A stretch of 64,000 bases of DNA, taken from contig OZ024766.1 in NCBI GenBank assembly GCA_964016885.1, positions 7,998,001-8,062,000 on the forward strand, given 5' to 3'. The DNA is from Eledone cirrhosa (taxonomy: Eukaryota). A program made the translations under genes and the position numbers. This document shows, one piece after another, positions 32,379 through 32,788 of the stretch. The notes beneath the pieces were generated by a model. The model worked only from the letters and a program-made list of their open reading frames with translations, had not been told where the DNA came from and did not search any database. Numbering within the stretch: the first letter of the stretch is position 1; every line of letters begins with the position of its first letter.

Positions 32379-32387
<9 letters not shown>

Positions 32388-32788
32388 TAAACAAATAATG
32401 AACAAACAATTCCTTATATTAAACAAAAAAAGTTCACTATTTAACGATCGTTTCTAGGGTACATATGTGTTATAATTGGTATGCATATTCAACAGATCTA
32501 TGTACAAAATTATACAAAATTATACAAATTATCAAGATTAAATATACATACCTAACACATATATACGCCGTCTTCAGAAATAATTATTTCTGAAGACGGC
32601 GTATATATGTGTTAGGTATGTATATTTAATCTTGATAATTTGTATAATTTTGTATAATTTTGTACATAGATCTGTTGAATATGCATACCAATTATAACAC
32701 ATATGTACCCTAGAAACGATCGTTAAATAGTGAACTTTTTTTGTTTAATATAAGGAATTGTTTGTTCATTATTTGTTTAATATTTTAT
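32379..32788. repeat. Apparently perfect 410-bp palindrome (205-bp arms, no spacer), part of element ~32379-32922
   Basis: Centre gtcttcagaaataa|ttatttctgaagac lies between 32583 and 32584. No arm mismatch was noticed by eye. Same family as 48656-48927. Confidence 0.95.
32585..32729 (+). ncRNA. Type I hammerhead with a ~116-nt extended stem II (family G); mirror copy on minus at 32438-32582
   Basis: UAUUU-CUGAAGA-CGGCGUAUAUAUGUGUUA...UAACACAUAUGUACCCUA-GAAA-CGAUCG-UU-AAAUA. Stem III is palindromic, stem II has C·C at position 4, and its first pair is a C·A mismatch. Confidence 0.7.

What the first reader, a model, noticed from the sequence alone, without database searches (positions are those of the whole stretch)
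32379..32788. Perfect 410-bp spacerless palindrome carrying back-to-back hammerheads with a 116-nt stem II
Seen: 205-bp arms with no mismatch noticed and no loop. The symmetry centre lies about 1 nt upstream of hammerhead stem I, so each strand encodes UAUUU-CUGAAGA-(long hairpin)-GAAA-CGAUCG-UU-AAAUA pointing outward. The long stem II would be missed by standard length-limited searches. Perfect palindromes are unstable, so this copy is either very recent, homogenised, or an assembly artefact. A transcript across it would be a 205-bp dsRNA.
Basis: partly seen in the sequence, partly recalled or inferred. Interest (0 to 1): 0.75.

Follow-up and report, generated by a model that had tools for sequence, protein, structure and literature searches.

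The report
Penelope stub with long-armed hammerhead
The palindrome is real and is one of many head-to-head stubs of a young Penelope-like jumping gene; its fixed start point and frequent extra G suggest the enzyme likely copies one capped RNA from both sides of a DNA break, and its predicted self-cutting RNA has an unusually long arm.

Summary
The 410-bp spacerless palindrome is exact. It is a short insertion, in (TA)n, of a young Hydra-clade Penelope-like retrotransposon: full-length copies encode an 813-aa RT/GIY-YIG-type protein with the Hydra motifs. The same junction occurs at 192 loci, so it is neither unique nor likely an artefact. Head-to-head stubs with opposed hammerheads are published, and this scan noted them before on other DNA of this and other genomes. 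Two details go further. First, the arms have fixed ends: 36 of 37 inverted arms end at one site and 21 of 37 start at the ribozyme's first base. That base is preceded by a non-native G in 433 of 1,753 non-C cases, as expected for run-off at a capped RNA start. Seven of 37 arm pairs do not overlap, arguing against simple fold-back. Second, the 116-nt stem II is family-wide and its variation keeps the pairing (15/27 versus 1/27 columns); listed Hydra hammerheads have about 25 nt or fewer there. Cleavage, transcription start and locus-spanning reads were not shown. The two ribozymes lie on opposite strands and probably do nothing as a pair.

The parts
32354..32378 (.). (TA)n target, left flank
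   Evidence: sequence
32379..32583 (-). Inverted arm = element positions 1573-1777 (L031 numbering); the outer end is the family's fixed second end
   Evidence: 32 of 37 inverted arms end at 1777
32436..32584 (-). Mirror copy of the type I hammerhead motif
32583..32584 (.). Self-complementary AT shared by both arms (element 1572-1573); inferred 2-nt microhomology joint at the likely RNA 5' end
   Evidence: the same 28-nt junction at 192 loci
32583..32923 (+). Forward arm = element 1572-1912: ribozyme-bearing pLTR end plus tail
   Evidence: 341 nt, 2 differences from L031
32583..32731 (+). Type I hammerhead motif: stem I 32583-32589/32725-32731, CUGAAGA 32590-32596, GAAA 32713-32716, palindromic stem III 32716-32723, predicted cut after U32724
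   Evidence: activity untested
32597..32712 (+). 116-nt stem II (31 pairs modelled in two lower helices, plus an apical part)
32789..32923 (+). 135-nt tail between the two fixed ends (1777 and 1912), present on the forward arm only
32812..32822 (+). TTTCACCGAAA mini-hairpin 24 nt after the 1777 end; a near twin lies 16 nt after the 1912 end in the full element (L031 1928-1938); candidate RT-start signal
   Evidence: read from the sequence; lead from e1-8673755; untested
32924..32943 (.). (TA)n target, right flank
   Evidence: sequence

Best explanation
This is a recent, 5'-truncated, head-to-head insertion of a Hydra-clade Penelope-like retrotransposon into a (TA)n tract, likely made when the element's enzyme primed reverse transcription from both sides of the DNA break on one RNA and both copies ran off that RNA's likely capped 5' end. 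Shown: parent element, target, fixed ends at 1777 and 1912, piled-up inner ends at A1572, identical arms, excess G before A1572. Inferred: the protein nicks both strands and starts copying at two internal sites (1912 and 1777); both cDNAs stop at A1572, the likely transcription start and first base of the hammerhead; their 3' ends finish in self-complementary AT and anneal, giving the spacerless palindrome. Other loci join with small deletions, insertions or unequal arms. The hammerhead belongs to the pLTR; its long stem II likely forms in the element's RNA, and it would cut after GUU, probably as a dimer through the palindromic ACGAUCGU. The two copies in the stub are on opposite strands and are a by-product.
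For: Parent: direct repeats 6,657 bp apart around an 813-aa ORF. Motifs RW(K/R), DKT, YRDD, CxCx5C, YIG, CxxC, CxH match the Hydra definition. 131 scored RT matches, 98-100% identical, none with stops. 4,688 exact 3'-end copies; 192 identical junctions. Of 90 consecutive 3' ends, 37 have an adjacent inverted arm: outer end 1772-1777 in 36, inner end 1570-1574 in 21. Arms of one insertion are identical in 26 of 32, against 57 of 496 between loci; 7 of 37 pairs do not overlap, and the inverted arm overshoots the forward arm by >30 nt in 10 (the reverse in 1). G before A1572: 433 of 1,753 non-C cases; 29 of the first 100 listed versus 5 of 100 one base downstream (Fisher p 7e-6); 19 of 51 ends in loci not picked on that letter. 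Untemplated G is attributed to cap copying for L1/SVA (PMC3287187, passages). A purified PLE protein cuts and extends both strands and starts RT at two internal sites (PMC11167929, parts 1-2 of 4 read). Stem II: 95.8% of cells paired; pair-keeping transitions in 15 of 27 columns, pair-breaking in 1 of 27.
Against: There is no RNA, CAGE or biochemical evidence for this family. No read was shown to span this locus from flank to flank. The G control is imperfect: T is inflated there by microhomology, and 3 of 11 viewed G cases could come from the partner arm. 13 of 37 pairs have both inner ends at 1570-1574, which fold-back also predicts. Only 1 pair changes on both sides, no more than in shuffles (1.4). 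A conserved AATAAA ends 8 nt before A1572 (75 of 82 contexts) and offers another source for the 5' end. In the anole element HHR cleavage was not needed for insertion in vitro.
Confidence: 0.7

Rival explanations
1. Self-priming or fold-back: one cDNA (or an antisense RNA template, as proposed by Arkhipova et al. 2013) folds back and copies itself, giving a hairpin that is inserted.
For: Arms identical in 26 of 32 pairs; 13 of 37 with symmetric inner ends; proposed in PMC3846280 (discussion read); short re-copied stretches of the first 13-20 nt at 4 junctions.
Against: 7 of 37 arm pairs share no sequence and 10 inverted arms hold sequence absent from the forward arm, which would need resection afterwards; the G excess on the sense strand fits a sense, capped template.
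Confidence: 0.15
2. Same two-sided priming, but the 5' end at A1572 is not a transcription start: it is made by cleavage at the upstream AATAAA signal, or it is an RT stop at the end of stem I.
For: AATAAA at L031 1558-1563 in 75 of 82 run-through contexts, followed by CA and a U/GU-rich stretch (canonical poly(A) layout recalled).
Against: Only 8 nt lie between hexamer and site (short, from recall); an uncapped end would not add G; RT stops at structures are expected on their 3' side (recalled).
Confidence: 0.1
3. The long stem II is an intron (GTATGT at 32616 to TAG at 32713) whose removal leaves a compact hammerhead.
For: Splice-like ends are present in all three subfamilies and the exon's last G would restore GAAA; PLE introns next to the hammerhead are known (PMC4209133).
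Against: 0 genomic copies with a short stem II; the remaining exon part folds at only -0.3 to -2.1 kcal/mol; variation keeps the long pairing; no joint at these splice sites in 4 runs, none on record as RNA.
Confidence: 0.1
4. Assembly artefact (fold-back chimeric read).
For: Perfect palindromes can come from chimeras (recalled); no locus-specific spanning read was obtained.
Against: Symmetry stops exactly at the family's fixed end and the flanks differ; 192 loci share the junction and many others have spacers or unequal arms; one contig of an independent run (X4, another study) shows 14 letters of the inverted arm before 1572; raw reads of 3 runs show head-to-head joints of the family.
Confidence: 0.03

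Closest known systems
Hydra clade of C-terminal EN+ Penelope-like elements (Craig et al. 2021, PMC8557442)
   Same: RW(K/R), DKT, CxCx5C, CxxC and CxH motifs; (TA)n target; type I hammerhead in the pLTR, often with extra bases flanking stem II and a GUU/GUA cut site; an inverted 5'-truncated copy is noted for Penelope-13_HM (supplement File S1/S2).
   Different: The unit is 6.66 kb (listed families are 1.1-3.0 kb) because of a long microsatellite-rich 3' region; 116 nt (104 in one subfamily) lie between the core boxes, against about 25 nt or fewer in the Hydra rows of File S2; the tail is 135 nt, not 30-40.
Inverted-pLTR / palindromic PLE insertions (Arkhipova et al. 2013, PMC3846280; opposed min-HHR pairs, Cervera and de la Pena 2014, PMC4209133)
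   Same: Head-to-head arms, palindrome at the junction, tail on one arm, hammerheads on opposite strands.
   Different: Those papers propose antisense self-priming or only note truncation; here non-overlapping arms and a G excess point to two primings on a capped sense RNA.
Poseidon_Ac in vitro (Frangieh et al. 2024, PMC11167929)
   Same: Both strands cut and extended; two internal RT starts define the tail; uncut RNA serves as template.
   Different: Another clade, a compact hammerhead overlapping the start codon, and adjacent RT starts; it does not address how the inner ends join.
L1 twin priming (recalled; seen only in a search listing)
   Same: Two target-primed cDNAs on one RNA, joined by microhomology, giving an inverted 5' part.
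   Different: L1 arms do not normally duplicate each other and the second start is variable; here the second start is fixed and the arms usually overlap.

Membership tests
Hydra-clade PLE | Single ORF, RT with C-terminal GIY-YIG-type EN | tested here: met
   813-aa ORF; FDI/YRDD and YIG motifs in order; Pfam GIY-YIG weak in 3 of 29 homologues, none in the query; profile hit to a retron RT at E 0.008
Hydra-clade PLE | RWK and DKT motifs | tested here: met
   RWR in the query, RWK in most homologues; DKT
Hydra-clade PLE | CxCx5C linker; CxxC and CxH around the conserved E and N | tested here: met
   CNCRNKTNC, CRLC..E, N..CNH
Hydra-clade PLE | (TA)n target | tested here: met
   flanks of this copy and of most sampled ends
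Hydra-clade PLE | Phylogenetic grouping with named Hydra elements | not tested
   no tree built; placement rests on motifs
EN+ PLE insertion structure | pLTR in partial tandem, adjacent inverted truncated copy, tail | tested here: met
   L031-L034 and 37 sampled stubs
Type I hammerhead ribozyme | CUGAnGA, GAAA and NUH in order, with stems I and III | tested here: met
   U17 varies U/A/C (43/16/1); rows were picked by a pattern holding the core, so core invariance is circular
Type I hammerhead ribozyme | G10.1-C11.1 pair closing stem II | tested here: not met
   C.A at this place, then two pairs and a C.C mismatch; similar unpaired flanking bases appear in File S2 rows, C...A in PLE-X1_cBra
Type I hammerhead ribozyme | Site-specific self-cleavage | not testable with these tools
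   needs an in vitro assay; the genomic test for arms starting at the cut site was inconclusive
Non-LTR retrozyme | Tandem non-coding monomers, each with a hammerhead | tested here: not met
   one forward and one inverted arm of an autonomous element; no tandem monomers

The most novel reading that the evidence does not exclude
Penelope-like elements begin their RNA exactly at the hammerhead, so the ribozyme with its 116-nt arm is the capped 5' domain of the template; the telomerase-related RT makes two strong-stop cDNAs from fixed internal starts, copies the cap, sometimes realigns to re-copy the first 13-20 nt, and the two cDNAs are joined. This family's thousands of stubs record every step, and its ribozyme is an active long-arm hammerhead class that length-limited searches miss.
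Probability: 0.35. Interest if true: 0.65.

Novelty: new variant of a known kind. Interest (0 to 1): 0.42.

Why it matters
How Penelope-like elements make their tandem and inverted ends is called an open question in PMC8557442 (passage). This active family gives exact coordinates to test: a predicted capped start (A1572), two RT starts (1777, 1912), a joining rule and intact source ORFs. A hammerhead with a 104-116-nt stem II would also mean that descriptor searches undercount these ribozymes. The palindrome itself is ordinary.

Tried and rejected
Rfam scan: no hammerhead row among the 150 shown of 314. Pfam on the query ORF: nothing significant. Spliced or short-stem-II genomic copies: 0. Sequencing runs: no RNA holder listed. 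Arms starting at the predicted cut site: 591 hits with a non-T at 1713 were mostly a GUA subfamily (26 of 30 viewed); 1 was a GUC point variant and 3 were true starts at 1714, of which 2 are explained by stem I microhomology; control site 16 hits; inconclusive. First parse used an anchor shifted by 2 nt and was redone. About a dozen of the 70 forward 'ends' (near 1057-1105 and 1531-1536) are probably subfamily indels, not ends. For A2, 60 of 68 distinct arms were aligned; 8 were left out, most of them of unusual length (indels). My window hammerhead scan missed the target itself, so it is incomplete. Local alignment of the regions around the two RT starts found only A/T-rich similarity. The sigma-70 scan is irrelevant to an animal. 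Paper searches for 'hammerhead ribozyme' + 'long stem II' + 'retrotransposon' gave 0 papers, and for Penelope/pLTR/cap/extra G/initiator listed none on cap copying in PLEs by title or abstract start; this covers open papers only. Protein folding and complex prediction were not needed.

Full report
Observation. The palindrome is exact: 205 + 205 bp, no spacer, centre between 32583 and 32584. The segment folds far better than shuffles (z -6.7). Both flanks are (TA)n, and element sequence continues to 32923.

Parent element. A search of the own genome (3.0 Gb, 1,796 contigs) returned 55 listed matches at 99-100%, from 40 of 598 candidates scored. In L031 two copies of the arm lie 6,657 bp apart around an 813-aa ORF. 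It has 118 homologues at E <= 1e-20, up to 48% identical. An alignment of the query with 28 of them shows RW(K/R), DKT, YRDD, CxCx5C, YIG, CxxC and CxH, the features that define the Hydra clade in PMC8557442 (section 11 read). No tree was built. All 131 scored matches of a 300-aa RT piece are 98-100% identical and free of stops, and a 35-nt 3'-end word occurs 4,688 times. The window copy differs from L031 at 2 of 341 positions, so the family is young.

Not an artefact. The 28-nt junction occurs at 192 loci; whole-arm identity was not checked at all of them. Symmetry ends exactly at element position 1777, the family's fixed end, and does not extend into the flanks as a fold-back chimera would. 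One contig of a run from another study shows the inverted arm before 1572. Raw reads of three runs show other head-to-head joints of the family. No read was shown to span this locus from flank to flank.

Rules of the ends. I took the first 90 of 100 listed 3'-end hits on contig 1. Six were internal and 14 ran beyond the fetched stretch; 37 of the other 70 have an adjacent inverted arm. Its outer end is at 1772-1777 in 36 (32 exactly at 1777), and its inner end at 1570-1574 in 21; 16 of the 70 forward arms start at 1570-1574 (about a dozen of the 70 are probably subfamily indels, not ends). Genome-wide, 5,940 copies carry the 17-mer starting at A1572, 3,579 continue with the native upstream 7 nt, and 1,753 have a non-native letter just before it (these patterns miss the third subfamily). 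The two arms of one insertion are identical in 26 of 32 cases, against 57 of 496 between loci. In 10 of 37 insertions the inverted arm reaches more than 30 nt beyond the forward arm, and in 7 the arms do not overlap. One template served both arms, and the inverted arm is often not a copy of the forward one.

Why A1572. It is not the ribozyme cut site (1713/1714). It lies in TCA(+1)TT, an initiator-like motif (consensus recalled). G precedes it in 433 of the 1,753 cases. By my hand tally G was 29 of the first 100 listed here and 5 of 100 one base downstream (p 7e-6), and 19 of 51 ends in loci not chosen on that letter, one locus counted twice. Untemplated G at full-length L1/SVA 5' ends is attributed to copying of the cap (PMC3287187, two passages). 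Caveats: the control is rich in T through microhomology, 3 of 11 viewed G cases could come from the partner arm, and a conserved AATAAA ends 8 nt upstream.

Mechanism. In vitro a Poseidon protein cuts and extends both target strands, starts at two internal RNA sites that define the tail, and does not need ribozyme cleavage (PMC11167929, parts 1-2 of 4). Applied here by inference: starts at 1912 and 1777, run-off at A1572, and joining of two cDNA ends that both finish in AT. A 2-nt overlap gives exactly the junction seen. The published alternative is self-priming on an antisense template (PMC3846280, passages and discussion); it explains symmetric cases but not non-overlapping arms or the sense-strand G.

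The ribozyme. All 68 distinct arms recovered by pattern have the long form (133-159 nt overall), and no short form exists with these flanks. On 60 of them 95.8% of cells pair; only one pair changes on both sides, no more than in shuffles. Transitions that keep a pair occur in 15 of 27 columns and those that break one in 1 of 27 (p 5e-5); in loops A>G occurs in 1 of 14 columns. This may reflect selection or fossilised A-to-I editing; both need the hairpin in RNA. Stem II opens with C.A instead of G-C. File S2 of PMC8557442 lists similar unpaired flanking bases and GUU sites, with about 25 nt or fewer between the boxes in its Hydra rows (supplement part 2; other parts seen only as search passages). 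The palindromic ACGAUCGU can form an 8-bp dimer helix (-10 kcal/mol), as proposed for PLE hammerheads, which cleave weakly in vitro (PMC4209133, parts 1-2 of 4). A third subfamily has GUA and a 104-nt stem II. In this stub the two ribozymes are on opposite strands, and a read-through RNA is predicted to fold into the 205-bp hairpin, so they are unlikely to act as a pair.

What is known. Inverted truncated copies and tails are standard PLE features (PMC8557442, passages), and opposed hammerhead pairs 100-700 bp apart were noted in 2014. Part 1 of 5 of bioRxiv 10.64898/2026.07.22.740005 concerns tandem retrozymes, which this is not; its supplements are closed. Earlier notes of this scan report such stubs, fixed starts and a long stem II on other DNA; a look-up with this sequence found none. 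My start-site reading was noted before those look-ups. My searches of open papers found no report of a long stem II hammerhead in a retrotransposon or of cap copying in PLEs, which does not cover subscription journals.

Verdict. A real, ordinary PLE stub of a new Hydra-clade family, with an unusual ribozyme variant and junction statistics that make the insertion mechanism testable. Interest 0.42.

Noticed in passing
L031 1558-1563 (not in the window copy): AATAAA ending 8 nt before A1572, kept in 75 of 82 run-through contexts while the bases between vary; a poly(A) site could coincide with the inferred start, giving unit-length RNA.
   Followed up: partly
L054, L197, L199, L217 junctions: Tandem re-copies of the first 13-20 nt of the arm at the joint (three in L054), like template realignment or polymerase-theta insertions.
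   Followed up: partly
L157-L186: A third subfamily with a GUA cut triplet, a 104-nt stem II and the same head-to-head layout.
   Followed up: partly
L049, L067, L068, L083, L084, L100, L104, L114: A second cluster of forward-arm 5' ends at element 1852-1865 (8 of 70), at the 5' side of a predicted hairpin in the tail.
   Followed up: no
window 18184 (+), 49802, 52841, 63347, 6149 (-): Compact hammerhead-like motifs with 26-32-nt stem II and a palindromic TATATA/TATGTA stem III, probably ends of other PLE families.
   Followed up: no
window 15811-15940, 47780-47930, 56224-56327; L031 8795-9456: Another G+C-richer repeat family that forms head-to-head palindromes next to (TA)n.
   Followed up: no
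window 41164-41305: Near-perfect 142-nt hairpin; best Rfam score of the window but below threshold.
   Followed up: no
window 5068-5977, 27403-about 30000, 33009-37500: Long arrays of about 50-61-bp tandem repeats that share a GACAGTAAGGTGTG...GCTGCTATTTCTA motif; one begins about 85 nt after this insertion.
   Followed up: no
L031 3460-3810: Asn/Lys-rich insert of about 100 aa between RT and linker, longer than in most homologues; recalls the N-rich inserts in rotifer Penelopes (PMC3846280).
   Followed up: no
window 4843-5042: Run of 200 N (assembly gap).
   Followed up: no
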